Source: Escherichia phage UPWr_E1
Sequence record: PP418985.1
Direction: 5' to 3' (one strand)
Length of the DNA: 64,000 nt
Shown piece after piece: positions 1,312-24,082 of the stretch. Each line of letters begins with the position of its first letter. Position 1 is the stretch's first letter. Position numbers and translations under genes: made by a program. A model generated the notes under the pieces. That model made no database searches. It worked only from the letters and a program-made list of their open reading frames with translations, and was not told the origin of the DNA.

Positions 1312-2244
1312 TCAGAACCAGTTAGTGACAGTATTCACCACACGCCCACCAACGCCATTTAGACGCGATAAAGCATTACCAGCAGCAGATAACCCACTAT
1401 CAAGTAAATTGTTCCCGAAAGTGTTTGTTATTGCGTTTATGGCCTTATCCTCAATCCATTCCCGCGCGGCTTGCTCGCCTACTGCACCAGTTTGCATAGA
1501 ACGATATGCAAAAGTAACATCGAATGTTGTGATTTCGTTGTTATTTTCATAGGTTAATTCCGGTGCACTCACACCAACAGGAACACAACCACTAAACATC
1601 ATGATCGTGTGAGGAACACCCATCCTATTATGCAAATTGACCTGAATATCTGCTTCAACGTCAACAGGAAGCGCACGAAGCCCTGTAACGGGGTCTTCTA
1701 CTGAGTTAACCCAATCCTGCATTGCTCTATAGTTTGATGCGCTAGAGTCCATTCTAAAGCTCAATACAAGAGGATCAAAATCACGTCCGGTAATTCGAAT
1801 GTTTGGCGCATTGTGGTTACGGTCCATTTCATAACTCAATCTGTTTTCTGGAACCTTAACTGCATACACCAGAAGACCGCTTGTCTTATATGCCATATTG
1901 AACCAATCAAGAGCATATGTACCAACATCAAATTGCCCCAGAAGAGATTGAACTACGCGGGATGACATTGCACCCAAAAGATATTTTTTGACACCGGATG
2001 AATCAACCGCACGCCTAACGCCCTGTACAGCAAGATTAGTCAATGCGTCAGTATAATCACCACGAGTAATCCCGAAATAGTCATTTAATGCATTTGGTAT
2101 AATATCATATACCGCACCACCCATACTTTCTAGGATCGCTTGTGTCTTATTACTTGGTGTGGTGGCAAATGCCACGCTGAATAAGTTAGATCGCTGAAAG
2201 TCAAGGTTAGCGGCTTGTTCGTTAAAATCATTTAAATCAAACAT
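1312..2244 (-). CDS. 54: Baseplate tail tube initiator gp54
   Basis: 310 aa (T4 gp54 about 320 aa); last gene of the 51-27-28-29-48-54 order; T4-like context. Confidence 0.75.
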   Translation of the reverse strand: MFDLNDFNEQAANLDFQRSNLFSVAFATTPSNKTQAILESMGGAVYDIIPNALNDYFGITRGDYTDALTNLAVQGVRRAVDSSGVKKYLLGAMSSRVVQSLLGQFDVGTYALDWFNMAYKTSGLLVYAVKVPENRLSYEMDRNHNAPNIRITGRDFDPLVLSFRMDSSASNYRAMQDWVNSVEDPVTGLRALPVDVEADIQVNLHNRMGVPHTIMMFSGCVPVGVSAPELTYENNNEITTFDVTFAYRSMQTGAVGEQAAREWIEDKAINAITNTFGNNLLDSGLSAAGNALSRLNGVGGRVVNTVTNWF

Positions 2245-3302
2245 TATGCCGCACTCCCAAATATAGTACCACGGGAAAGTGTCAAGATCTCCCTAAATGA
2301 TACTTCCAGAACAAAGGTACTAGGCAAGTTAGGAGAAATAGCAAGGCCATTAAACTTACCATCAGGCGACTTGTCCAGACGTACACTTGAGATCTGAGCG
2401 GGACCAAATGCATCGCTACGCCCTTCAAATGATGTACGCTTACCGAAGTTAGAGATCATCCATATTGTCGGGTTAGATACAGTAATCACGTTGGATAGGA
2501 AATCAGTGATCCCCTCAAAAAGAGTATCATTTTTCTTTGCTTCGGCTGGCGTCGATTTGCTCAACAGCGTATTTTTATACCATGCATCAACTTCCGCTTT
2601 TAATTCTTTTGCGGTGCTGGAAATACCGCTAGAACCATAAGACAATTCTAAAAACGTTTCGTATATGATCAGAATATTGCGAAGGTCTTCAATACTACGT
2701 GGGGTTAGATGCCATACATAGTTTTTAGTTCGTGCGTCAGCACCAGCATACATGCTTCGAGCAGTATTATAAATCTGTTCACCGTGATCGGCAAGGTATC
2801 CACCAGTAATACTTTCTATACCACCAAAAACGGCAGTAGATGCCATATTTGATAGAGCGCCACCTAAAGTACCGCCACCACGAGAAATAACAGATTCGCC
2901 AACATCATTAAACTTATGGCTTGCGGCGTCAACGTCAGATTGACTACGAGGAAGAAGAATATTAGCAATTGCCTCGCGGTCAAATGCAGTATTTCTTCCG
3001 CCCAGATTTAAATCAAAACCAGCAATATTAACGCTACCACCAAAACCACTAGCAACATTTTTCTTTTTTCTGAAATCACGCAATGATCCAGTTGTGCGAG
3101 ATGTATAATCATATGCAGTGAATAACAGACCATTATTATATAAGTCGTTGATATAATAACCGCTAGCATCATTACCGCTAGCACGTTCAGCGGGGAATTG
3201 AGCGGTTAATGTTTTCCCTTTATTTTTTGAGGTAAAACCAGCGGAGGTTTTAACCCCCGCTTTAAAGCTATCAACGGCATCATTGATAACACTAATTTTC
3301 AT
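2244..3302 (-). CDS. 48: Baseplate tail tube cap gp48
   Basis: 352 aa (T4 gp48 about 364 aa); synteny between 29 and 54; start/stop overlap with neighbours. Confidence 0.75.
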   Translation of the reverse strand: MKISVINDAVDSFKAGVKTSAGFTSKNKGKTLTAQFPAERASGNDASGYYINDLYNNGLLFTAYDYTSRTTGSLRDFRKKKNVASGFGGSVNIAGFDLNLGGRNTAFDREAIANILLPRSQSDVDAASHKFNDVGESVISRGGGTLGGALSNMASTAVFGGIESITGGYLADHGEQIYNTARSMYAGADARTKNYVWHLTPRSIEDLRNILIIYETFLELSYGSSGISSTAKELKAEVDAWYKNTLLSKSTPAEAKKNDTLFEGITDFLSNVITVSNPTIWMISNFGKRTSFEGRSDAFGPAQISSVRLDKSPDGKFNGLAISPNLPSTFVLEVSFREILTLSRGTIFGSAA

Positions 3303-5035
3303 TAAAAGATCCCCATATTAATTGTACCGGGTGCATCAATTCGAGTTGTAGGCGCGCCCTGTTTAATAGTTCTATTGTTTGTTACAATTTGTGTATTATT
3401 TACATTTGCCGTCTGGTTTGTCGTTTGTTGCTGGATTGCAGCTTGTTTCTGCATTTGTTCAGTACGGTCCGCTTGTCTTGCTGTTTCCGTTTCAGTTGCA
3501 GGAACAGGTTTAGTTTGAATCACACCCTTAGTTTTATCAGCATACATCTCATCAAATTTTTCAATAAGACGCTCTAACTGAGAACGATCACTTTCAACTA
3601 ATGTAGGATCTTGAACTTGCTCACGGTAAACATCAATATCCTTTTTCAACTCTCCCATTTTTTCTTTGTCATAATCACCGCTCAAGTTCTCCATAACTTC
3701 ATTAATATTATTGATCGCACCCTCGCTTTTAATTCTAAGTTTACGACTAGCAGATCGTTGTTCAGCAGAAACAGACTCATATTCCCCGCGCTTTAATTCT
3801 TCTTGTCGCTTCTCTGCGTCAACATCCTTTTGATCTCGCCAACCCAGACTAACAAGTCCTTCATTAACTTTATCTTTAATGGAGTCACCGATAGCCTCAC
3901 CAATATCACGGGCTTTTCCGGTCCAACCAGTACGCTCTCCGTATTTGTCCTCTTCATGCTCGGATTCAACTTTATCCATCAATTCAAGTTCTCTTTCGGT
4001 TGGCGTATATCCCTGTGAAACAGCAGACTTCAAAGCACCATATTCTAACTGATCAGCATAATCACCCATACCAGGGATCATGCGAAGAATTTTAGCAATA
4101 CCGGTAGTGATAATTCGATCAAGTTGGATAAAGGTTTTATAGAATGCATCACCAATACCCATAACAAGAGATTTAATTAATTCTCCATATTCACCCTTAG
4201 ACCAATAATCTCGAACTTGACGAATAGTTGTTAAAATATCGCTAATAGGACCAGCCCATTCTCCGGCCTTATCCATAAATTCATCGAATTTTGTTTCGAA
4301 TAAATCACTCCAATATCTGAAATGAATCATCAGGGTATCAATGGCAAAAACAACACCCATCAAAATAGCACCCCATTTTGCGGCTTCTGCCATAGCGGTC
4401 AAGGTGATCTTAAATAACATCCCTAAGACCTTATTAGAGATACCTATGGTTTCTTTAAATCCTCCACGAACAACTTTAAGAAGATTTTCCATAGAATCCG
4501 CATTGCGCTTATCTGCGGCGTTCTTTTTCTTCCGTTCCTCAACATCTGGTTTTTTCTTTGGAAGACCTTGATAGTTGTCATTATTAGGCTGTTCCGGTAC
4601 AGTAGGCAAAACTGGCTGAGGTGATGGCATTGTTTGCGGTTGTTCCGGTTTTTTCAGTGCTTCTTCAATCGCACCAATACCGCTAGCCATTTTACTGACA
4701 ACACCAAATCTACGTTCCATCATAACACCAAAACCACGTAATTTCTCATTCATCTGAGAAGAGAAATTATTGAGTTTTTGCAATTCTTCATAAGTTTTTT
4801 GGGTATTGCCAGCGGTAGATTGTGTATTTTCTGCCGTCAATTCATTGGCTGCGGTGTTATCCTCTACCGCACCAACAACTTCATTAGATTTTTGTTCTAC
4901 TGTCTCCGCCACCAATTCGGTAGCGGCTTGCAAATTATCAATAGAATCAAGTTTATCTAATTTGTTAAGTTTATCAATCGGATTTTCTTCCGCTTCCTTG
5001 CGCATCCCGCGAAATGATGTTAATGCGTCATTCAT
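3302..5035 (-). CDS. 29: Baseplate hub / tail length determinator gp29
   Basis: 577 aa (T4 gp29 about 590 aa); synteny; coupled to 28 and 48. Confidence 0.75.
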   Translation of the reverse strand: MNDALTSFRGMRKEAEENPIDKLNKLDKLDSIDNLQAATELVAETVEQKSNEVVGAVEDNTAANELTAENTQSTAGNTQKTYEELQKLNNFSSQMNEKLRGFGVMMERRFGVVSKMASGIGAIEEALKKPEQPQTMPSPQPVLPTVPEQPNNDNYQGLPKKKPDVEERKKKNAADKRNADSMENLLKVVRGGFKETIGISNKVLGMLFKITLTAMAEAAKWGAILMGVVFAIDTLMIHFRYWSDLFETKFDEFMDKAGEWAGPISDILTTIRQVRDYWSKGEYGELIKSLVMGIGDAFYKTFIQLDRIITTGIAKILRMIPGMGDYADQLEYGALKSAVSQGYTPTERELELMDKVESEHEEDKYGERTGWTGKARDIGEAIGDSIKDKVNEGLVSLGWRDQKDVDAEKRQEELKRGEYESVSAEQRSASRKLRIKSEGAINNINEVMENLSGDYDKEKMGELKKDIDVYREQVQDPTLVESDRSQLERLIEKFDEMYADKTKGVIQTKPVPATETETARQADRTEQMQKQAAIQQQTTNQTANVNNTQIVTNNRTIKQGAPTTRIDAPGTINMGIF

Positions 5036-5550
5036 GATAGGCGATCCAATATGTTAATTCCACCATAGATAGTGCCTTCCGGCGTATCCAGCGCAATAGT
5101 TTTTCTTAATCCGGTAGCCCAATCCATAATAAAAGCTGGAAAATCATGGAAGTCTACGCTAGGATCGTGATAATGATGACTCAAGAAATCAGCGTCATCG
5201 ATAATGGGGTCAGAAGTGTACATTGGATTTTTAAATTTAAAGACTTTACCATTTAAAGTAAATTCCGTCTCTGTACAAATATACACATCACACAACTTAA
5301 GACCATCCTTTTCTTCCAGACATTTACCATTAAACGCACAAAGGTTAAGCATAACCAATTCAGACTCGGCAGCGTTTAACCCAGGACAGATTGAATCAAG
5401 AAGAATCTTTAATGTTTCATCACAGCTACGAACATCTTTTAATAATCGATGTTGCTTAATCCCCATTTTTGGGATCTTGATATGTTTCCCGTTTATCTCT
5501 AATTTTTTTACAGGAACAACAAATTTTAACATAGGTTTAGTTTCTGTCAT
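5032..5550 (-). CDS. 28: Baseplate hub distal subunit gp28
   Basis: 172 aa (T4 gp28 about 177 aa); synteny 27-28-29. Confidence 0.7.
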   Translation of the reverse strand: MTETKPMLKFVVPVKKLEINGKHIKIPKMGIKQHRLLKDVRSCDETLKILLDSICPGLNAAESELVMLNLCAFNGKCLEEKDGLKLCDVYICTETEFTLNGKVFKFKNPMYTSDPIIDDADFLSHHYHDPSVDFHDFPAFIMDWATGLRKTIALDTPEGTIYGGINILDRLS

Positions 5551-11001: not shown

Positions 11002-11037
11002 AGCGAATAGCCTCACTCAATAAATACAGTATACAAA

Positions 11038-11071: not shown

Positions 11072-11797
11072 ATGTTTGATAAAGAATATTTCGAAGAACT
11101 CCGCGCTATTGCGGCGTCCGACGACAAAGAAGCACAGAAAACAGCTAAAACAGAATTAGCTGACTACGCAAAACAATTTGATATCAAGGTCAAAAAGACG
11201 TTATCACTAGAGAACATGATCGAGTTCGTAGAAACCGAATTAACTAAACTGGCTTCCGAAATGGAAGAAGAAACTCCGGCAGAAGGAACCAGTATTAACG
11301 ATCTTATTCTGGCAGCAGATACCGCAGATGATAAAGTGGTATTCGACGAAGTTGATCCGTCTCTGGTTGAAGCAATGAAAGAACCCGAGATCGTCATTGA
11401 AGAAACAAAAGAAGAATCTCCAGCAGTTGAACCAGTGGTCGAAGAAGTTAAGTCAGTTGTTGAAGAAGCGCCGGAAGTTAAAGTGGAATCTCCGGTAGCC
11501 AACATTTTCTCCGACGAAGCAGAGCATCGTTCCCCAGCACATGACACTGATTCATTTTGTGATCTTACTGGTTTCCGTCCGACCATTTGCTTGATCGGTG
11601 GCGGTCGTGGTTACTACTCCTGCCCGTGGTGGATTTTCGACTGGATTGTTAATACTCCAGATTGGAAGAAGTACCCAGAGCGTTTCCCGCACGCGTATGT
11701 ACACGACACCCTCAAGTCACTGATCTATTATATCAAACGCGATGGGTCTGTCAAGGTGCGAGAGACTAAACACAGCCAATTCCACACTCTTAAATAA
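11072..11797 (+). CDS. inh: Putative Inh (prohead protease inhibitor)-like acidic protein
   Basis: 241 aa (T4 Inh 226 aa) between uvsW and hoc as in T4; acidic E/V/P-rich middle; sequence identity to T4 Inh not verified. Confidence 0.4.
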   Translation: MFDKEYFEELRAIAASDDKEAQKTAKTELADYAKQFDIKVKKTLSLENMIEFVETELTKLASEMEEETPAEGTSINDLILAADTADDKVVFDEVDPSLVEAMKEPEIVIEETKEESPAVEPVVEEVKSVVEEAPEVKVESPVANIFSDEAEHRSPAHDTDSFCDLTGFRPTICLIGGGRGYYSCPWWIFDWIVNTPDWKKYPERFPHAYVHDTLKSLIYYIKRDGSVKVRETKHSQFHTLK

Positions 11798-11875
11798 TAA
11801 GAGTGTAAAAGTTGTGAAATATTTGTTATGTTTTTAATTGTAGTTCCGTTATGCAATTAAAAAAGAGGATATTAC

Positions 11876-14419
11876 ATGTCTAACAAAATCAATGTATTAC
11901 ATCAAACAGAAGGTCCGGTTTATGGTTCCGTTGGTCGTCCACTTCTGTTAAAGATTGTTGTCAGTACAGCAGATTTTAAAGATTTTATAGCAGAATGGAA
12001 GCTGAACGGTGTAAATGTGCCAGCAGAACAAATTTCCGACGCGGATCAGTCTCTGTATATTGAGGAAATGCGAGAAAATCAATTTGGTACATATACATGT
12101 CACATTAAACTGAAAGACGAACCACAGGTCGGTGTAGATATTAAGCCTATTCTTGTACAGCGTAGATTTTTTATTGCACCGCAAGATCAGTCTCCGACGT
12201 ATATTAAAAAACGAATCGGCGAAGAATTAACCCTATTCGCAACACCAGCAATTGAACTAGGTCAACACCCAGAGTTTCAATGGTATCGAAATCATATTCC
12301 GGTAGAACCAGAAAAAATCGAGGACAACCGAACCGTTCATATTGCCCGTGTTGGTCTTATTGATTTTGGCAATTATACGTGTCGTGTTACTGTCCGTGGT
12401 GAACCAGCATCACAATATTGGATTAATCCAATTATTGTAGAAAAGAATGATACCCCTCCTGTAGTGCATCTTAGCGAAGAATATCCTAGCTCTATTACAG
12501 TAGCAGAGGATTCAGCGGTACATCTCAATGTACTTGTTACATCAGATGATAAAGTATCGCCTATTGAGTATACGTGGATTCATAACGGTAGGATTGTTAT
12601 CGAAGAAAACGGAAACTCTTTGGCAATTCCGCATATTCGAAAAGATCAGGAAGGTATCTGGCGTCTTGAGGTAAAACAAGGTGACACTACGGTGTATTCT
12701 AAAGATTGTCATATTGAGGTTGATAGTCAACCATTCTTTAGGATCACACGTCAACCGCAAACTCTTAACGTGTCTGGCGGTGCTTTGGGTTTATTCAGCG
12801 TTGATTATAGAACAAACTATTCACCTGTAAAGATCCAGTGGTATCGTAAAAAGAATACAGAACAGGAGTTTACACCAATTGTAGGTGAGACTAATAAAGA
12901 TCTTCATATTACACCAGCTACTACTGAATTAAACCGAGCACGCTACAAAGCTCGTATCACGTATGGCACAGACCAATACAGAGATTCAGAAGAAGCTGAA
13001 TTGCTAGTAGGTGAAGCATTAACTATTAGAATCACCAAACAACCACAAGCTCTACAAAACGTCCGAGTTTCTTCCTCACAGACGATCACTTGTGAAGCTG
13101 AAACAAACTATGAACATTATCGCTTAGATTATCAGTGGTATAAAGATAACGAATTAATGCCAGGCAAAACATCTAATGTATTGCACTTCTCATCAATCAA
13201 AAAGACAGATGAGGGGCAATATAAGTGTATTGCATCAATGGGTATTTCTGGTCATCGAATTACCGCAGAATCATCACCAGCACAGGTGACAGTAGACAAT
13301 TCAAAGGCATCACTGACTATCACTAAACAGCCAACTGGTGCAACAATTCGCACTGGTGGGTCGTGGTCTATTTCGGTCGAAGCAACATCAAACGATGCAC
13401 TACCGATTCGCTATCGCTGGTTTAAAGACGGCGAAGATCTATTCCCACAAGGCGTTGAACAAAAAAACGTTTACGGTGAAGACCATGCTCAACCTGATTC
13501 GACTGGTGTATATACTTGTCGCGTTTCGGTTGGTTTTGGTGATCACCGAGCGTCTCAAATGTCACATCCAGCAAGGGTGCTAATTAGCGATAATGTGGAA
13601 ATTGTGCCGAATGACTTACAGGTCACCGCACATCCTCATGATAATGACGTTAAGTATAATCAGCGTGTTATCTTAACAGCAAGATCTCAAAATAGCATCG
13701 GGTTAAAACCACATATTCAATGGAAAAAGGATGGTGTTGCTATTCCGGGTGCAAATTCAGAGACTTTAGTCATTGAGCACGCGAAACCATTGGATGCAGG
13801 GGTTTACACCGCAGATATTACCGCAGCAGAAAAAACGGTAACAACCAATCCGGCTACAGTTACTGTAGCAGAGCACAGCAATATTAATATCTTAAAACAT
13901 CCAGTGGATGTGGTTGCAAAAGAAGGACAAACCACCGACATTGTATTGGAAGCTCATGCGGAACATTCTGACGGTGAAACCGAAGTTAGTTATCAGTGGC
14001 ATAAAATTAAAGATGGCGTAGACACTGAAATAAGAGATGCAACAAATAAAACTTTAGTTATCCCTCATGCACAGATCAGCAAGCAAGCTCATCAAGCGAC
14101 CTATTACGCCGAGATAAAAGAAGAGAATGGACACGTTAAACATAGCGAAAAAGTTCGAGTGGTGTTTACTACCGCGAAATTAAAACGCTATGTTCACCCG
14201 ATCCCGTGGCGACGTACATCCTTCCAGTATCAAGGCTATTGGGTTATGGATGAGATTGATCGCTGTAATCGTGAAGGGCTTAACTGGCTTGAGGACTTTA
14301 CGCACACCAAATATCCAGAAGAGATCGAAACTATTGCTGCATCATTGCATCATTATTCAAATACTCATGTATTAGAATCTCGTAATGGTTATCTGGTTGA
14401 TGGTACTCAACTATTTTAA
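11876..14419 (+). CDS. hoc: Hoc-like outer capsid protein with expanded Ig-like array (847 aa)
   Basis: C-terminal YVHPIPWRRTSF...WVMDEI...ESRNGY matches the T4 Hoc capsid-binding domain (YVHPLPHR...GWWVMDEI...ESRNGY); upstream repeated Ig-like modules of about 90-100 aa with YTC-x-V motifs. Confidence 0.85.
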   Translation: MSNKINVLHQTEGPVYGSVGRPLLLKIVVSTADFKDFIAEWKLNGVNVPAEQISDADQSLYIEEMRENQFGTYTCHIKLKDEPQVGVDIKPILVQRRFFIAPQDQSPTYIKKRIGEELTLFATPAIELGQHPEFQWYRNHIPVEPEKIEDNRTVHIARVGLIDFGNYTCRVTVRGEPASQYWINPIIVEKNDTPPVVHLSEEYPSSITVAEDSAVHLNVLVTSDDKVSPIEYTWIHNGRIVIEENGNSLAIPHIRKDQEGIWRLEVKQGDTTVYSKDCHIEVDSQPFFRITRQPQTLNVSGGALGLFSVDYRTNYSPVKIQWYRKKNTEQEFTPIVGETNKDLHITPATTELNRARYKARITYGTDQYRDSEEAELLVGEALTIRITKQPQALQNVRVSSSQTITCEAETNYEHYRLDYQWYKDNELMPGKTSNVLHFSSIKKTDEGQYKCIASMGISGHRITAESSPAQVTVDNSKASLTITKQPTGATIRTGGSWSISVEATSNDALPIRYRWFKDGEDLFPQGVEQKNVYGEDHAQPDSTGVYTCRVSVGFGDHRASQMSHPARVLISDNVEIVPNDLQVTAHPHDNDVKYNQRVILTARSQNSIGLKPHIQWKKDGVAIPGANSETLVIEHAKPLDAGVYTADITAAEKTVTTNPATVTVAEHSNINILKHPVDVVAKEGQTTDIVLEAHAEHSDGETEVSYQWHKIKDGVDTEIRDATNKTLVIPHAQISKQAHQATYYAEIKEENGHVKHSEKVRVVFTTAKLKRYVHPIPWRRTSFQYQGYWVMDEIDRCNREGLNWLEDFTHTKYPEEIETIAASLHHYSNTHVLESRNGYLVDGTQLF

Positions 14420-14463
14420 TATTATTGGTCGCCCTTCGGGGCGACCTTAACGGAGTTATTTTT

Positions 14464-15696
14464 ATGGCATTTACAGTAGCACTAAAATCAAATAAAAAAT
14501 GTTTCCTTGCTGGCGATACATTTAAATTAACGGCTACATTAGCTGGGGTGGAAGATGGTCCGGTCCCATCAAATGTTACCTATGCATGGACTAAAAATGA
14601 TCAGCCAATTGAAAATGAATCAAATGTATTAACGGTCTCTAACGCAACAGCCGAGAGCGCCGGAAAATATAAAGTATCCGTTACTGACACAGACACACAA
14701 GAAGTGGTAGAATCTGCGGTTGTGTCAATGGCAGAAGCAGAATTAGTAGTTAAAATTAATCATCCATCTAGCTACGTCGCATTCGATGAGGCGGTAGAAT
14801 TAACAACTACGGTTTCATATTCAACCGGATTTGCACCGTCTAGCAATTACCAGTTGCATTATAAATGGGAACAAGATCAAACAAATTTAAACCATAGCGA
14901 AAGCACATTATCGATCAGCAACTTCGTCGATGACAACAATGGCGTTTATAAGGTTACTGTATGGGGCGAGTCAGAAACATCAGCGGACAGCGCCAGTGTT
15001 AAACTTGCAGCAATCTCTATATCTGTAGTTGAAGATGTACCACTGGCAAAAACCGTCGCAATGGGTAAACCGATCACACTACCTTATCGCACGATGGGTG
15101 TTTCTATCGGTGACACGTCAGGTCTTCCGGCATTATCAACTAAACAGTCATGGTATTTGCAGCGAGAAGGACAACCGCGCCCGACACTGATCGGGAGTGA
15201 GGTTGGGGAGGCATTGGAAGGGTTTTCTATCATGCCTAACGGCTATTTGCACAAAGAAGCTGCAACAATGGACGACACCGCTAACTTTTGGTGTATCGTA
15301 GAGTTGCTTCAAGAAATTGACGGGCAGCCAGTACCAATCGAAGAAAAAGGTAGCTCTCATTGCGCACTGGAAGTTGTAGAATCACTTCATAAGATGTTCC
15401 GGTATGTGCACCCGATCCCGTGGCGCAAAACTTCGTTTATCTATATTGGATGGTGGGTATTCGACGAGATCGTTAAATTCAATGAGGCAGGGTTAGAATG
15501 GAGAAACCGTGAAGTTTACGAGGATAGCAAATATGCAAGCGACATCGAGACGATCGCGGCAGCGGAAGAAAAATATAGTGATTGCACTTGCATGGAATCT
15601 CGCAATGGTTTCATGTATCAGTCCAAAGAGTTCCATAAACTGGACCGAGAGACATTAGAGCGTGTCCTGCGCATTCGTGAAACGCCTCCTGCTTAA
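14464..15696 (+). CDS. Second Hoc-like paralog (about 410 aa)
   Basis: C-terminus FRYVHPIPWRKTSF...GWWVFDEI...ESRNGF is homologous to the Hoc capsid-binding domain; Ig-like N-terminal modules. ATG 14464 preferred because the track start at 14425 lies inside a hairpin. Confidence 0.8.
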   Translation: MAFTVALKSNKKCFLAGDTFKLTATLAGVEDGPVPSNVTYAWTKNDQPIENESNVLTVSNATAESAGKYKVSVTDTDTQEVVESAVVSMAEAELVVKINHPSSYVAFDEAVELTTTVSYSTGFAPSSNYQLHYKWEQDQTNLNHSESTLSISNFVDDNNGVYKVTVWGESETSADSASVKLAAISISVVEDVPLAKTVAMGKPITLPYRTMGVSIGDTSGLPALSTKQSWYLQREGQPRPTLIGSEVGEALEGFSIMPNGYLHKEAATMDDTANFWCIVELLQEIDGQPVPIEEKGSSHCALEVVESLHKMFRYVHPIPWRKTSFIYIGWWVFDEIVKFNEAGLEWRNREVYEDSKYASDIETIAAAEEKYSDCTCMESRNGFMYQSKEFHKLDRETLERVLRIRETPPA

Positions 15697-15707
15697 TGAA
15701 ATCTATC

Positions 15708-15736
15708 AGCCATCCTTCGGGGTGGCTTTTTTGTTT
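15708..15736 (+). terminator. Rho-independent terminator after the hoc paralogs
   Basis: agccatcc-ttcg-gggtggct hairpin followed by a T-run. Confidence 0.65.
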
Positions 15737-15743
15737 TTAGTGC

Positions 15744-15771
15744 TTGACAGTGTGATTTAGTGGCTTATAAT
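15744..15771 (+). promoter_or_regulatory. Sigma70-like promoter
   Basis: TTGACA, 16-nt spacer, TATAAT. Confidence 0.6.
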
Positions 15772-15891: not shown

Positions 15892-16089
15892 ATGAATGAG
15901 ATTGTACGATTGATCAAAGAAACACCAATCGAGATGTATTTTCTGGCTTTGGTTGCAACAATGGTCTATCAGCTAGTCGCATGTCATGTATGGAAATCAG
16001 AAAATGCGTTTATCCGGTTTTTTGGTACTGTCATGATCCAGTTTCCGGTACTGATCACTATCCTGTTAATCGTCAATGAGGCGAAGTAA
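15892..16089 (+). CDS. Small hydrophobic protein (65 aa)
   Basis: ORF with hydrophobic segments; overlaps the next ORF at its stop/start. Confidence 0.45.
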   Translation: MNEIVRLIKETPIEMYFLALVATMVYQLVACHVWKSENAFIRFFGTVMIQFPVLITILLIVNEAK

Positions 16090-16364
16090 TGGACAAGAAA
16101 ACAGCGTTAATGGTTTACATGCTACGCGAAGACCACGGTCTTAATTTTGTTGATATTGCTAAAAAGATTGGCGGGTTCAGCGGACAAGATGCGGCTAAGG
16201 CATGGTTGATGGTAAAAGATGCACGAGAGGCTTACGCCAACCGTGAAAAGGTTGTTTATCGTAAACACCACATCAACAAAAAATTTAAAAATAAAGTTCA
16301 AAAACGTGTTGACAAGCCAAATAACACTGTTATAATGGACGCATTCAAACGGGCAATGTCCTGA
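16089..16364 (+). CDS. Hypothetical basic protein (91 aa), possible DNA-binding
   Basis: Translationally coupled ORF; basic C-terminus (KKFKNKVQKR); function not established. Confidence 0.45.
   Translation: MDKKTALMVYMLREDHGLNFVDIAKKIGGFSGQDAAKAWLMVKDAREAYANREKVVYRKHHINKKFKNKVQKRVDKPNNTVIMDAFKRAMS
16309..16336 (+). promoter_or_regulatory. Sigma70-like promoter inside the 3' end of the 91-aa ORF
   Basis: TTGACA, 16-nt spacer, TATAAT; upstream of the ORF at 16411. Confidence 0.55.
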
Positions 16365-16410
16365 TTTGTAATTAATATTCTGAATAACTAATCAATAGAG
16401 GTGACTAATT

Positions 16411-16848
16411 ATGAAATTCCGCAAAAACCACGTAGCAATGAAAAAAGCAATGTTTGAAGCATTCAAAGCAGTTGATCAGGGCGGTGTTACTCTGATTGAG
16501 CAAATTAATGTTGATGTTTGGCAGTCTCCGGCGATCACTTGCTCACGTCTGGCGACGGCTGGTCTTCTGAATGTTCACAGCTCTACAGCATACGACGAAG
16601 CATTGCAAGTTATTAAGGCTTTCGCTGGCGACGTTACCAGCAAGTGGGTCTATGAGAATAAAGGTGAAATTGCGGTTGCTCACGTAGGCAACAATATCCA
16701 GATGGAAATCAAGATTAAGGAAGGGTCTAAACGCAATCAGATGCTTGTTCGCTTCCAGCCATACAAAACTAACGTAGTGCCGGATGATCTGGTCATCTCT
16801 AAGAGTAATGTTACCATTCGCCGAAATCAGATCGTTATCAACAAATAA
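16411..16848 (+). CDS. Hypothetical protein (145 aa)
   Basis: ORF with GAGG Shine-Dalgarno; terminator immediately downstream. Confidence 0.55.
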   Translation: MKFRKNHVAMKKAMFEAFKAVDQGGVTLIEQINVDVWQSPAITCSRLATAGLLNVHSSTAYDEALQVIKAFAGDVTSKWVYENKGEIAVAHVGNNIQMEIKIKEGSKRNQMLVRFQPYKTNVVPDDLVISKSNVTIRRNQIVINK

Positions 16849-22483: not shown

Positions 22484-24082
22484 TTAGCAACCTTTAACCC
22501 ATACACGGCGGAAGTATGCGTTTTTACCTACGCTGTCTTTGCTCAACATACCGGAGGTGATGCGAGCGGACGGTGCCTGGGTTTTGCTGTCTGCAAACGG
22601 GTTAATACCGATGCCGTAGCGAGTCTTGAAGCCCAGAACCGGGTGGAAAGACTGCGGATCGGTTGCACGCAGCGGAGTCAGAGCAACATACGGCGCATAG
22701 TAGATACCAGCATCCATTTCGTTGTCGCCTTTGTAGCCTACGGTGAAGTAGTCCTGACGAGCATACTGGTCGATGAATACTTTGTACTTACCAGCCAGAA
22801 CACCAGCGAAAACAGCTTTAGTGGTGTCGGTATTCAGACCTTTTGCAGCACCCTGCATAGCAACACTGATACCCTGATCAGCAGAAGCCAGAATGTTTAC
22901 AACGTTACGGGAAGCGATAACAAAGTTACCAGCACCGCGACCAGTCTGACGAGCGATTTCAGCAGCTTCTTTGTCGATCTGGTAGATCAGAGATTTGAAG
23001 GATTCACCAGCCCAACGAGCACCGCGAGTATCGATCGGGTCTTGCAGGTCAAATACACCAGCTTTAGAACCAACGGTCTGAGTCATACCAGTCTTACCAA
23101 CCTGTGCGGTAAAGTTGATAACGTCAACGATTTCACGGTTGATTTCCAGCAGAACTTCGTTAGCCAGGATAGCATTCAGTTCAGCGTCAGCATCCATACC
23201 GTGTACAGCACGCAGATCCTGCGCAACTTCGATAGAATAACGAGCTTTCAGTTGGCGAGATTTCGCTTCAACAACCTGTTTGTCAATACGCATCGACATT
23301 TCAGCCCACGGGTTATTGCTGGAACCGTTAAAGCCTTCCTGAATTTCGGCAATGGAAGTAGCCATACCGAAAGCGATTTCAGCCAGTTTACCTTCTTCCA
23401 TCAGCTTCATGACCACTTCATCTTCGGATTCATCACCTGATTTCTGCGGAGTTACTGCGCTAGAAGTTACGTTTTGCAGATATGCAATACCAGTGTCTGC
23501 AAACGTGTGATGTACAATGTCTCCCGGTTGGATCTGGGTAGATAATGCCAGTTTAGCGAATGCAGTACCAGTAGGAGAACCAGTCGTTGCATTTTTTGCT
23601 GCCAGAGAGCTATGGAACACATCTGGCGCATACATCGGGTGGAATGCTTCACGAACATTTTTAGGATTACCACCAGCCAGCGGGTCTGGACCGTATACAG
23701 AACGGATTGCAAAGATCTGGCTAGTCGGGGTGCTCATAGGCTGAACGCCACAAATATCAAATGCAATCAGGTTAGGAATAGCACGGCGAACCATACCGAT
23801 AACAGCCGGACCTACGTTAGTGATTGCACCGCTAGTCTGACCTGCCGCAATCTGGGATGCGTCGTAACCGTGGTCGCCAGCAACTTCGGCTTCGGCGATA
23901 AAACCACCGAATGCTTCAACAACTTTTTCATCCTTATAGATCGGATCTACAGCAAAATCCGCTTCCTGAGATTCCAGAATTTTAGCAACCAGTTTCTGCT
24001 TAGACGCAGTTGCGATTTCCGGCAGTTTTTCGTTCTCCAGCAGCGGGGACCATTTTTCCATCAGTTCTTTGGTAGTTTTCAT
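22484..24082 (-). CDS. 23: Major capsid protein gp23
   Basis: 532 aa; extensive identity to remembered T4 gp23 (LPEIA, GQTSGA, GPAV-GMVRRAIPNLIAFDICGVQPM, KSRQLKA-YSIE-AQDLRAVHGMDADAEL, YIDQYA-QDYFTVGYKG-NEMDAGIYYAPYVALTPLR). Confidence 0.97.
   Translation of the reverse strand: MKTTKELMEKWSPLLENEKLPEIATASKQKLVAKILESQEADFAVDPIYKDEKVVEAFGGFIAEAEVAGDHGYDASQIAAGQTSGAITNVGPAVIGMVRRAIPNLIAFDICGVQPMSTPTSQIFAIRSVYGPDPLAGGNPKNVREAFHPMYAPDVFHSSLAAKNATTGSPTGTAFAKLALSTQIQPGDIVHHTFADTGIAYLQNVTSSAVTPQKSGDESEDEVVMKLMEEGKLAEIAFGMATSIAEIQEGFNGSSNNPWAEMSMRIDKQVVEAKSRQLKARYSIEVAQDLRAVHGMDADAELNAILANEVLLEINREIVDVINFTAQVGKTGMTQTVGSKAGVFDLQDPIDTRGARWAGESFKSLIYQIDKEAAEIARQTGRGAGNFVIASRNVVNILASADQGISVAMQGAAKGLNTDTTKAVFAGVLAGKYKVFIDQYARQDYFTVGYKGDNEMDAGIYYAPYVALTPLRATDPQSFHPVLGFKTRYGIGINPFADSKTQAPSARITSGMLSKDSVGKNAYFRRVWVKGC

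What the first reader, a model, noticed from the sequence alone, without database searches (positions are those of the whole stretch)
11876..15696. Two tandem hoc paralogs, one with an expanded array of about eight Ig-like domains
Both ORFs end with a domain matching the T4 Hoc capsid-binding domain (YVHP-P-R...GWWV-DEI...ESRNG). The first is 847 aa, more than twice T4 Hoc (376 aa), with about eight Ig-like modules; the second has about three. Two Hoc proteins sharing one capsid-binding domain would compete for the same capsid sites or form mixed decoration, a possible route to diversify surface adhesion.
Basis: partly seen in the sequence, partly recalled or inferred. Interest (0 to 1): 0.55.

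Follow-up and report, generated by a model that had tools for sequence, protein, structure and literature searches.

The report
Long and short Hoc capsid fibres
This RB49-like (Krischvirus) phage carries two adjacent genes for the Hoc head-decoration fibre, one with eight and one with three antibody-like domains; such pairs are already described in other T4-like phages, and the classic phage RB49 turns out to carry only the deletion scar of the long copy.

Summary
HocL (11876-14419, 847 aa) has eight Ig-like domains plus a C-terminal domain homologous to the T4 Hoc capsid-binding domain (Cbd). HocS (true start ATG 14464, ends 15696, 410 aa) is the ortholog of RB49 Hoc: three Ig domains plus a Cbd. 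Both keep the T4 residues that contact gp23, and the gp23 Hoc-binding loop is identical to that of a single-hoc relative. Both genes are under purifying selection (dN/dS 0.1-0.17). Their Ig parts are hypervariable islands (55-70% DNA identity) between flanks that are 94-99% identical.

The pair also occurs in 5 of 58 Krischvirus records (JK32, where both are annotated as Hoc; Brandy; SSG23; SFHK24; G2248) and in a distant metagenomic relative. The other 53 records hold a shorter match; all six checked, RB49 and Phi1 among them, carry a frameshifted deletion scar of hocL. So two genes is the ancestral state.

A long-plus-short Hoc pair is already published for Serratia phage Muldoon (Fokine et al. 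2023). This is therefore a new member of a known kind.

The likely mechanism is that the two monomers compete for the single site per gp23 hexamer, giving a coat of about 18 nm and 40 nm fibres. This is inferred, not shown; no virion data exist.

The parts
11072..11797 (+). inh (inhibitor of prohead protease). Upstream syntenic neighbour and probably the first gene of the same transcription unit.
   Evidence: phrog_1051 at E 6.6e-77. Same position as inh in T4, Phi1 and JK32.
11865..11868 (+). Ribosome-binding site GAGG of hocL
   Evidence: Read from the sequence. The 70 nt upstream of hocL are 94-96% identical in single-hoc phages.
11876..14170 (+). hocL, array of eight Ig-like domains (aa 1-765)
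   Evidence: Pfam Ig_3, Ig_2 and I-set. AF2 model with eight beta-sandwiches. Foldseek hits to Ig arrays. Domains are only 12-33% identical to each other, and there is no repeat at DNA level.
14171..14419 (+). hocL C-terminal capsid-binding domain (aa 766-847) plus stop codon
   Evidence: Match to T4 Hoc 292-366 in 5VF3_Z, E 9e-11. 86-92% identical among HocL orthologs and nearly invariant in 14 sequences. dN/dS 0.02-0.06.
14427..14446 (+). Intergenic GC-rich hairpin with a UUCG tetraloop (GGTCGCCC-TTCG-GGGCGACC). Candidate attenuator, terminator or mRNA-stabilising element between hocL and hocS.
   Evidence: Fold energy of the 60-nt stretch is -19.7 kcal/mol. An equivalent hairpin with a different stem sequence occurs in JK32, SSG23, Brandy, G2248 and the distant locus L014. 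It is destroyed in single-hoc Phi1 and KFS-EC. G2248's depositors annotated it as a putative terminator.
14452..14455 (+). Ribosome-binding site GGAG of hocS
   Evidence: Read from the sequence
14464..15378 (+). hocS, three Ig-like domains (aa 1-305)
   Evidence: Aligned end to end with the RB49 Hoc crystal structure 3SHS, E 5e-99. Pfam Ig_3 and Ig_2.
15379..15696 (+). hocS C-terminal capsid-binding domain (aa 306-410, with a 20-residue tail that HocL lacks) plus stop codon
   Evidence: Match to T4 Hoc 264-363, E 5e-13. 67-81% identical among HocS orthologs and 47-56% to HocL Cbds.
15708..15737 (+). Intrinsic terminator (8-bp stem, UUCG loop, T-run) that closes the hoc unit. It is followed by a 12/12 sigma-70 promoter match at 15744-15771.
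   Evidence: Promoter and terminator scan; sequence

Best explanation
hocL and hocS are two functional, anciently duplicated genes for the Hoc head-decoration fibre of a Krischvirus (RB49-like, Straboviridae) phage.

Both are probably made late from one transcript, inh-hocL-hairpin-hocS-terminator. After capsid expansion, a monomer of either protein docks its C-terminal alpha/beta domain into the groove at the centre of a gp23* hexamer. That groove holds one Hoc only, and a T4-size prolate head has 155 such sites. The two paralogs are therefore mutually exclusive at each capsomer.

The virion would then carry a mosaic of short fibres (three Ig domains, about 18 nm, as in T4 and RB49) and long fibres (eight Ig domains, roughly 40 nm). 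The ratio would be set by relative synthesis, possibly through the conserved intergenic hairpin, and by relative affinity. The variable Ig arrays would provide weak adhesion to glycans or cell surfaces and a negatively charged coat, with two different reaches and specificities.

Shown here: homology, domain architecture, synteny, purifying selection, conservation of contact residues and of the gp23 loop, and the evolutionary history.

Inferred: virion incorporation, competition, fibre lengths, ligands, and the role of the hairpin.
For: - Both C-termini are homologous to the T4 Hoc Cbd.
- T4 contact residues listed in PMC10385173 are Y293, H295, R300, Y304, W306, W309, W310, E355-G359 and Y360. 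They are identical or conservatively replaced in both paralogs.
- The gp23 segment equivalent to T4 G326-R344, the Hoc site, is identical in this phage and in single-hoc KFS-EC.
- RB49 Hoc binds T4 capsids although its Cbd is far diverged (about 35% identity for the RB49-type Phi1 Hoc; PMC10385173). A 50%-identical Cbd binding the same site is therefore plausible.
- HocL has eight confident Ig domains.
- Both genes have dN/dS of 0.10-0.18. The Cbds are the most constrained part, at 0.02-0.12.
- HocL length is fixed at 841-847 aa across 13 clusters that are 56-98% identical.
- The tandem pair is kept in a relative whose HocL is only 56% identical.
- The hairpin is conserved through compensatory stem changes and lost where hocL is lost.
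- The unit ends in a strong terminator.
- Long-plus-short Hoc pairs are reported for Muldoon, and a second pair for PG7.
Against: - There is no proteomic or structural evidence that HocL is in virions of any of these phages. Papers on Brandy49 and SSG23 do not mention Hoc.
- No consensus T4-type late promoter (TATAAATA) lies on the + strand upstream of inh, hocL or hocS, so timing and co-transcription are assumed.
- The beta-strands of the HocL Cbd were modelled with low confidence (pLDDT below 50 at 772-787 and 835-847).
- Each paralog's Cbd has its own fixed differences: W309 is Y in HocL, there is a 2-residue loop indel, and only HocS has the 20-residue tail. These could mean different sites or affinities rather than simple competition.
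- HocL is less acidic (pI 5.8) than typical Hocs (pI 4-5).
- hocL was lost in most of the genus, so it is dispensable at least for propagation on common hosts.
Confidence: 0.72

Rival explanations
1. Both proteins decorate the capsid but do not simply compete. Their separately conserved binding domains direct them to different subsets of the quasi-equivalent gp23 hexamers, for example vertex-proximal versus the rest or cap versus midsection, or give very different affinities. Long and short fibres would then be patterned rather than random.
For: HocL Cbds are 86-92% identical to each other and HocS Cbds 67-81%, but only 47-56% across paralogs. Paralog-specific fixed residues exist, and only HocS has the 20-aa tail. 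In T4, vertex-proximal hexamers already bind Hoc differently, in two preferred orientations (PMC10385173).
Against: All listed gp23-contact positions are kept in both paralogs. The gp23 loop shows no co-variation with the presence of hocL. No data exist on occupancy.
Confidence: 0.15
2. hocL is intact but functionally decaying or unexpressed cargo, a gene on its way to the loss seen in RB49-type phages. The virion would carry only HocS.
For: 53 of 58 Krischvirus records lack an intact hocL; all six examined carry a scar. Hoc is non-essential in T4 (PMC10385173). No late promoter consensus was found.
Against: dN/dS is 0.10-0.15 over 847 codons with saturated dS. The Cbd is nearly invariant and there are no stops or frameshifts in six phage genomes and 13 protein clusters. 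Length is conserved to within 6 residues at 56% identity. The gene has an intact RBS.
Confidence: 0.06
3. HocL is not a head protein. It would use a Hoc-like C-terminal module to attach an Ig fibre to another virion part such as the tail, neck or gp24 vertices.
For: Some PHROG hits of the Ig region are to families labelled tail protein (phrog_3995, phrog_853). PDB hits include a 'putative tail protein' (9c2d_S).
Against: Those hits cover only generic Ig domains. The C-terminal module matches only Hoc families (phrog_1149, 14282, 11091) and T4 Hoc itself, with gp23-contact residues kept. The gene sits at the canonical hoc locus.
Confidence: 0.04

Closest known systems
RB49 Hoc (PDB 3SHS; Krischvirus RB49 and Phi1 single hoc gene)
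   Same: HocS is its ortholog. It has the same length class (404-410 aa), three Ig domains plus a Cbd, and the same locus. It aligns from residue 1 at E 5e-99, and the Cbd is 89-92% identical.
   Different: The Ig domains are only 41-65% identical. RB49 and Phi1 lack a working long paralog and keep only its frameshifted scar, 186 nt (RB49) or 261 nt (Phi1).
T4 Hoc (376 aa; PDB 5VF3, 8T1X and others)
   Same: Same architecture of Ig string plus C-terminal alpha/beta capsid-binding domain. The YVHP..GWWV.DEI..ESRNG motifs and contact residues are kept, as is the inh-hoc-24.3 synteny.
   Different: The Cbds are only 35-40% identical. T4 has one hoc gene. HocL has eight rather than three Ig domains and is less acidic (pI 5.8 against 4.7).
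Serratia phage Muldoon Hoc pair (1174 aa with 10 Ig domains, plus 314 aa with 2 Ig domains) and the Enterobacter phage PG7 pair, described in Fokine et al. 2023, Viruses 15:1517 (PMC10385173)
   Same: [quoted passage not shown] This is the same concept as here.
   Different: Different genus and different domain numbers. I did not compare the sequences directly. For Muldoon and PG7, too, virion stoichiometry is not reported in that paper.
Orthologous pairs in Krischvirus phages JK32, Brandy (Brandy49), SSG23, SFHK24 and vB_EcoM_G2248
   Same: Same tandem genes (846 aa plus 408-409 aa), same intergenic hairpin and same flanks. JK32 annotates both as 'head outer capsid protein'.
   Different: HocL is only 64-69% identical and HocS 60-66% identical in protein, although flanks are 94-99% identical in DNA. 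In Brandy and G2248 both genes are labelled hypothetical; in SSG23 only the long one is (HocS is 'Hoc-like head decoration').
Dhakavirus VR5 second Hoc-like gene (272 aa) next to hoc (367 aa)
   Same: A second protein with a Hoc Cbd is encoded beside the canonical hoc.
   Different: The genes are convergent rather than tandem. The extra copy is shorter, not expanded.
T5 pb10 and other Ig-bearing hexamer-centre decoration proteins
   Same: A monomeric Ig-like fibre anchored at the hexamer centre. The Ig domain shows weak sequence similarity (5lxk_A, E 2e-5).
   Different: The capsid-binding domain is unrelated, and there is a single Ig domain.

Membership tests
Hoc (highly immunogenic outer capsid protein) family of T4-like phages | C-terminal, non-Ig capsid-binding domain of about 80-100 aa homologous to T4 Hoc residues 281-376 | tested here: met
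   HocS 285-386 against T4 Hoc 264-363, E 5e-13. HocL 771-845 against T4 Hoc 292-366, E 9e-11. PHROG Hoc families phrog_1149, 14282 and 11091 match both.
Hoc (highly immunogenic outer capsid protein) family of T4-like phages | Conserved gp23-contact residues (T4 Y293, H295, W309/W310, E355-S-R-N-G359; PMC10385173) | tested here: met
   Y, H, R300 and ESRNG are identical in both. W310 is kept in both. W309 is W in HocS and Y in HocL. Y304 is F and W306 is Y in both. Y360 is Y in HocL and F in HocS.
Hoc (highly immunogenic outer capsid protein) family of T4-like phages | N-terminal linear string of Ig-like domains | tested here: met
   HocL has eight domains (Pfam; AF2; Foldseek). HocS has three, by alignment to crystal structure 3SHS.
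Hoc (highly immunogenic outer capsid protein) family of T4-like phages | Genomic position downstream of inh and upstream of 24.3/gene 24, opposite in orientation to uvsW and to gene 24 | tested here: met
   The window has uvsW(-), inh(+), hocL(+), hocS(+), a 24.3-like gene and gp24(-). T4 and Phi1 have the same order.
Hoc (highly immunogenic outer capsid protein) family of T4-like phages | One monomer bound at the centre of each expanded gp23* hexamer; present in virions | not testable with these tools
   Only indirect support: the gp23 Hoc-binding loop is identical to that of a single-hoc relative and near-identical to T4's. No proteomics was found in papers on Brandy49 or SSG23.
Hoc (highly immunogenic outer capsid protein) family of T4-like phages | Acidic protein, pI about 4-5 (PMC10385173) | tested here: inconclusive
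   HocS has pI 4.75 (met). HocL has pI 5.82 and net charge -21 at pH 7, so it is acidic but above the quoted range.
Two-Hoc phages (long plus short Hoc in one genome, as in Muldoon) | Two separate intact genes, each with its own Hoc capsid-binding domain, one with a much expanded Ig array | tested here: met
   847 aa with 8 Ig domains and 410 aa with 3 Ig domains. Both are intact and under purifying selection. Muldoon has 1174 aa with 10 Ig domains and 314 aa with 2 Ig domains.

The most novel reading that the evidence does not exclude
The two Hocs are not interchangeable occupants of one site. Their separately conserved binding domains, together with the conserved intergenic hairpin, would set a defined ratio or pattern of 40-nm and 18-nm fibres on the head.

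The long fibre would then act as a long-range adhesin. It may work together with the co-inherited collagen-stalk/C1q-like-head fibre gene between g23 and g24. Together they could contribute to host-surface engagement, for example the unexplained ability of the two-hoc phage Brandy49 to infect O-antigen-shielded E. coli.

The RB49 lineage lost this whole surface module by deletion.
Probability: 0.12. Interest if true: 0.6.

Novelty: new member of a known kind. Interest (0 to 1): 0.36.

Why it matters
Hoc is the model phage "adherence to mucus" protein and the main display platform on T4 capsids. A natural phage that loads two Hocs of very different length onto one class of site would be a ready test system. 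It could show how occupancy, stoichiometry and fibre reach are controlled, and whether capsid fibres influence host range or mucosal retention. Cultured members of the group exist (Brandy49, JK32, G2248, SSG23).

The practical new point concerns RB49 and Phi1. RB49 is the reference phage whose Hoc was crystallised. Both are deletion derivatives that carry a frameshifted remnant of a long paralog, and the remnant ORFs form their own "hypothetical protein" families (phrog_19377 and probably phrog_32100). Conclusions drawn from RB49 about Krischvirus capsid decoration therefore describe a reduced state.

The concept itself is not new. Long-plus-short Hoc pairs are in the literature, and one ortholog pair is already annotated as Hoc.

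Tried and rejected
1. Late promoters. There is no exact TATAAATA on the + strand between 10900 and 15900. Only one-mismatch sites occur (AATAAATA at 11019, TACAAATA at 11032), so the promoter of the unit is unresolved. A weak sigma-70-like match at 14397-14425 (9/12) is not evidence.
2. Recent internal duplication of Ig modules is rejected. The domains are 12-33% identical. Tandem Repeats Finder gives only a 17-nt trifle, and direct repeats are at most 24 nt.
3. HocL as HocS plus an inserted block is rejected. No HocL Ig domain is close to a HocS Ig domain (at most 26% identity).
4. Pfam and NCBIfam give no model hit for either Cbd alone. The large protein database lists PF26428.1 on some orthologs, and I could not identify that family in the Pfam copy available.
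5. An exact-sequence look-up of HocL in public assemblies found nothing. The window phage itself is not in the phage collection above about 93% identity, so its source is unknown.
6. Co-variation of the gp23 binding loop with hocL presence: none found.
7. Literature on the two-hoc phages (Brandy49, SSG23) contains no mention of Hoc and no virion proteomics. The supplements of Fokine 2023 held as text do not list JK32 or G2248.
8. PDB sequence searches for the two extra g23-g24 ORFs found nothing.
Full report
**What is there**

The window is part of a Krischvirus-like (RB49/Phi1 group, Straboviridae) genome. Its structural region is at most about 93% identical to any record in the phage collection. 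On the + strand, downstream of uvsW (minus strand) and inh (11072-11797), lie two ORFs.
- The first, here called hocL, runs 11876-14419 (847 aa) and has a GAGG ribosome-binding site.
- The second is listed from TTG 14425. Its real start is ATG 14464 (MAFTV..., GGAG site upstream). That residue aligns with residue 1 of the crystallised RB49 Hoc (3SHS, E 5e-99). This hocS is therefore 410 aa and ends at 15696.

**Homology and architecture**

HocS aligns end to end with the three Ig-like domains of RB49 Hoc. Its C-terminus aligns with T4 Hoc 264-363 (E 5e-13). HocL residues 771-845 align with T4 Hoc 292-366 (E 9e-11). PHROG Hoc-like head-decoration families match both.

HocL gives strong Pfam Ig_3, Ig_2 and I-set hits. 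An AlphaFold2 model built on 14 orthologs (mean pLDDT 83) shows eight beta-sandwich domains, followed by a C-terminal domain with two helices. The strands of that last domain were poorly modelled. Foldseek finds contactin, Robo, DSCAM and titin Ig arrays.

The eight domains are only 12-33% identical to each other, and none is close to a HocS domain. No DNA-level repeats exist. The array is therefore old, not a recent expansion.

**The binding domains**

The two capsid-binding domains (Cbds) are about 50% identical to each other and 35-40% identical to T4's. Fokine et al. 2023 (PMC10385173) list the T4 residues that contact gp23*: Y293, H295, H299/R300, Y304, W306, W309, W310, Q354, the E355-G359 loop and Y360.
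- In both paralogs Y293, H295, R300, W310 and ESRNG are identical.
- Y304 is F and W306 is Y in both.
- W309 is W in HocS and Y in HocL.
- Y360 is Y in HocL and F in HocS.

The gp23 segment that forms the Hoc site (T4 G326-R344) is identical in this phage and in the single-hoc phage KFS-EC, and nearly identical to T4's. The same paper shows that a Hoc monomer contacts all six subunits of a hexamer, and that RB49 Hoc binds T4 capsids. I therefore infer that both paralogs use the one site per hexamer and exclude each other there.

Each paralog's Cbd is nevertheless separately conserved. HocL orthologs are 86-92% identical, HocS orthologs 67-81%, and cross-paralog pairs 47-56%. HocS carries a 20-residue C-terminal tail and a two-residue loop insertion that HocL lacks. 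Different affinity or hexamer preference therefore cannot be excluded.

**Selection and variability**

Against the orthologs in JK32, SSG23 and G2248, dN/dS is 0.10-0.15 for hocL and 0.15-0.18 for hocS. It is 0.02-0.12 in the Cbds. Synonymous divergence in the Ig parts is at or near saturation.

In 250-nt bins, DNA identity to those phages is 94-99% in the flanks. It falls to 55-70% across both Ig arrays and rises again to 83-90% (72-75% against G2248) at each Cbd. Both Ig arrays are thus hypervariable islands holding deeply diverged alleles, while the anchors are conserved.

Thirteen 90%-identity clusters of full-length HocL orthologs (841-847 aa, 56-98% identical) exist in public assemblies. 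Neither gene is a pseudogene.

**Distribution and history**

The tandem pair occurs in 5 of 58 Krischvirus records: JK32, Brandy, SSG23, SFHK24 and G2248. It also occurs in a 153-kb metagenomic contig whose HocL is only 56% identical. The duplication therefore predates the divergence of these lineages.

The other 53 records give only a short match; the six I examined contain a scar.
- Phi1 and MIZ4 keep hocL codons 1-35 joined, at a GACTTTA microhomology, to a frameshifted remnant of the last 42 or so codons. The scar is 261 nt and is annotated as ORF168.1.
- RB49, KFS-EC, phiS and PTE-Eco09 carry the same scar minus a further 75 nt, removed between two CAGAA repeats. This scar is 186 nt.

The nesting points to one ancestral deletion of about 2.3 kb followed by further erosion. 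PHROG family phrog_19377 (and probably phrog_32100) corresponds to these remnants. Two Hocs is therefore the ancestral state of the group, and RB49, the phage whose Hoc was crystallised, is a derived, reduced form.

**Expression signals**

Between the genes lies a GC-rich hairpin with a UUCG loop (14427-14446). All two-hoc phages, including the distant one, have a hairpin at this place with different, compensating stem sequences. Most are followed by a short U-run. The hairpin is destroyed in the single-hoc phages, and G2248's depositors annotated it as a putative terminator.

Only about 17 nt separate the hairpin from the hocS start codon. hocS must therefore be read through the hairpin from upstream, and the hairpin could set the hocL:hocS ratio. 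This is an inference.

A strong terminator follows hocS at 15708-15737, and a perfect sigma-70 promoter match follows that. I found no consensus late promoter on the + strand.

**Mechanism proposed**

Both proteins are made late, and each gp23* hexamer centre takes one or the other. The result would be a mixed coat of fibres about 18 nm and about 40 nm long. The lengths are scaled from the 180 Å quoted for four-domain T4 Hoc in PMC10385173.

The Ig arrays would give weak, variable adhesion and negative charge. HocS has pI 4.75. HocL has pI 5.82 and net charge -21. Published Hoc functions that could apply are mucin-glycan binding (PMC11853027), binding to bacterial surfaces, and pH-dependent dispersion (PMC10385173).

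**Comparison and novelty**

Fokine et al. 2023 already describe Serratia phage Muldoon with a 1174-aa, ten-Ig Hoc plus a 314-aa, two-Ig Hoc. They also describe a second Hoc-like pair in phage PG7. Dhakavirus VR5 carries a second Hoc-like gene next to hoc. JK32's GenBank record names both orthologs "head outer capsid protein".

The finding is therefore real but a new member of a known kind. I did not find the following points in the papers searched:
- the ancestral status of the pair in Krischvirus;
- the scars in RB49 and Phi1;
- the conserved hairpin;
- the separately conserved anchors.

**What failed**

No virion proteomics were found for any two-hoc phage. Neither Pfam nor NCBIfam has a model that hits the Cbd. 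The exact protein is not on record in public assemblies.

**In passing**

Exactly the same five phage records, and this window, carry a 2.7-kb insert between gene 24 and gene 23.
- The other ORF is 310 aa with an alanine-zipper coiled coil.

The other 53 records match only about 18% of this stretch; single-hoc KFS-EC has just two tiny ORFs there, and phrog_20809 corresponds to the remnant.

Brandy49, which has hocL and this insert, shows unexplained penetration of O-antigen shields. The authors attribute this to gp38 (PMC9569957). This is a lead only.

Noticed in passing
[not shown]
   Followed up: partly
Loci L002 (Phi1) 2380-2640, L016 (RB49) 601-786, L007 (KFS-EC) 2501-2686: The single-hoc reference phages carry a frameshifted remnant of hocL. 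Phi1 ORF168.1 is hocL codons 1-35 plus out-of-frame 3' debris. RB49 has the same scar with a nested 75-bp deletion between CAGAA repeats. These remnants have been annotated as hypothetical proteins and form PHROG family phrog_19377 and probably phrog_32100.
   Followed up: yes
window 22484-24082 (gp23, minus strand), residues 136-220: 18 of the 22 amino-acid differences between this gp23 and that of KFS-EC cluster in residues 136-220, while the Hoc-binding loop is identical. This is a second surface-variable patch on the capsid.
   Followed up: no
window 15744-15771 and 16309-16336 (+), 11754-11727 (-): There are three perfect 12/12 sigma-70 promoter matches. One lies directly after the hoc terminator and probably drives the downstream small ORFs (15892-16848), including the 24.3-like gene.
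   Followed up: no
Locus L012 (Dhakavirus VR5) 2114-4243: VR5 has a 433-aa gene annotated 'tail fiber protein' directly upstream of a 272-aa second Hoc-like gene. Both are convergent with the canonical hoc. This is another way of adding a Hoc-anchored protein.
   Followed up: no
Locus L011 (Slopekvirus Miro) 4433-5252: In Klebsiella phage Miro the Hoc Ig part (177 aa) and the capsid-binding domain (91 aa) are annotated as two separate adjacent ORFs. This is either a split or frameshifted hoc, or a two-piece arrangement. A second Cbd-like place exists elsewhere in that genome.
   Followed up: no
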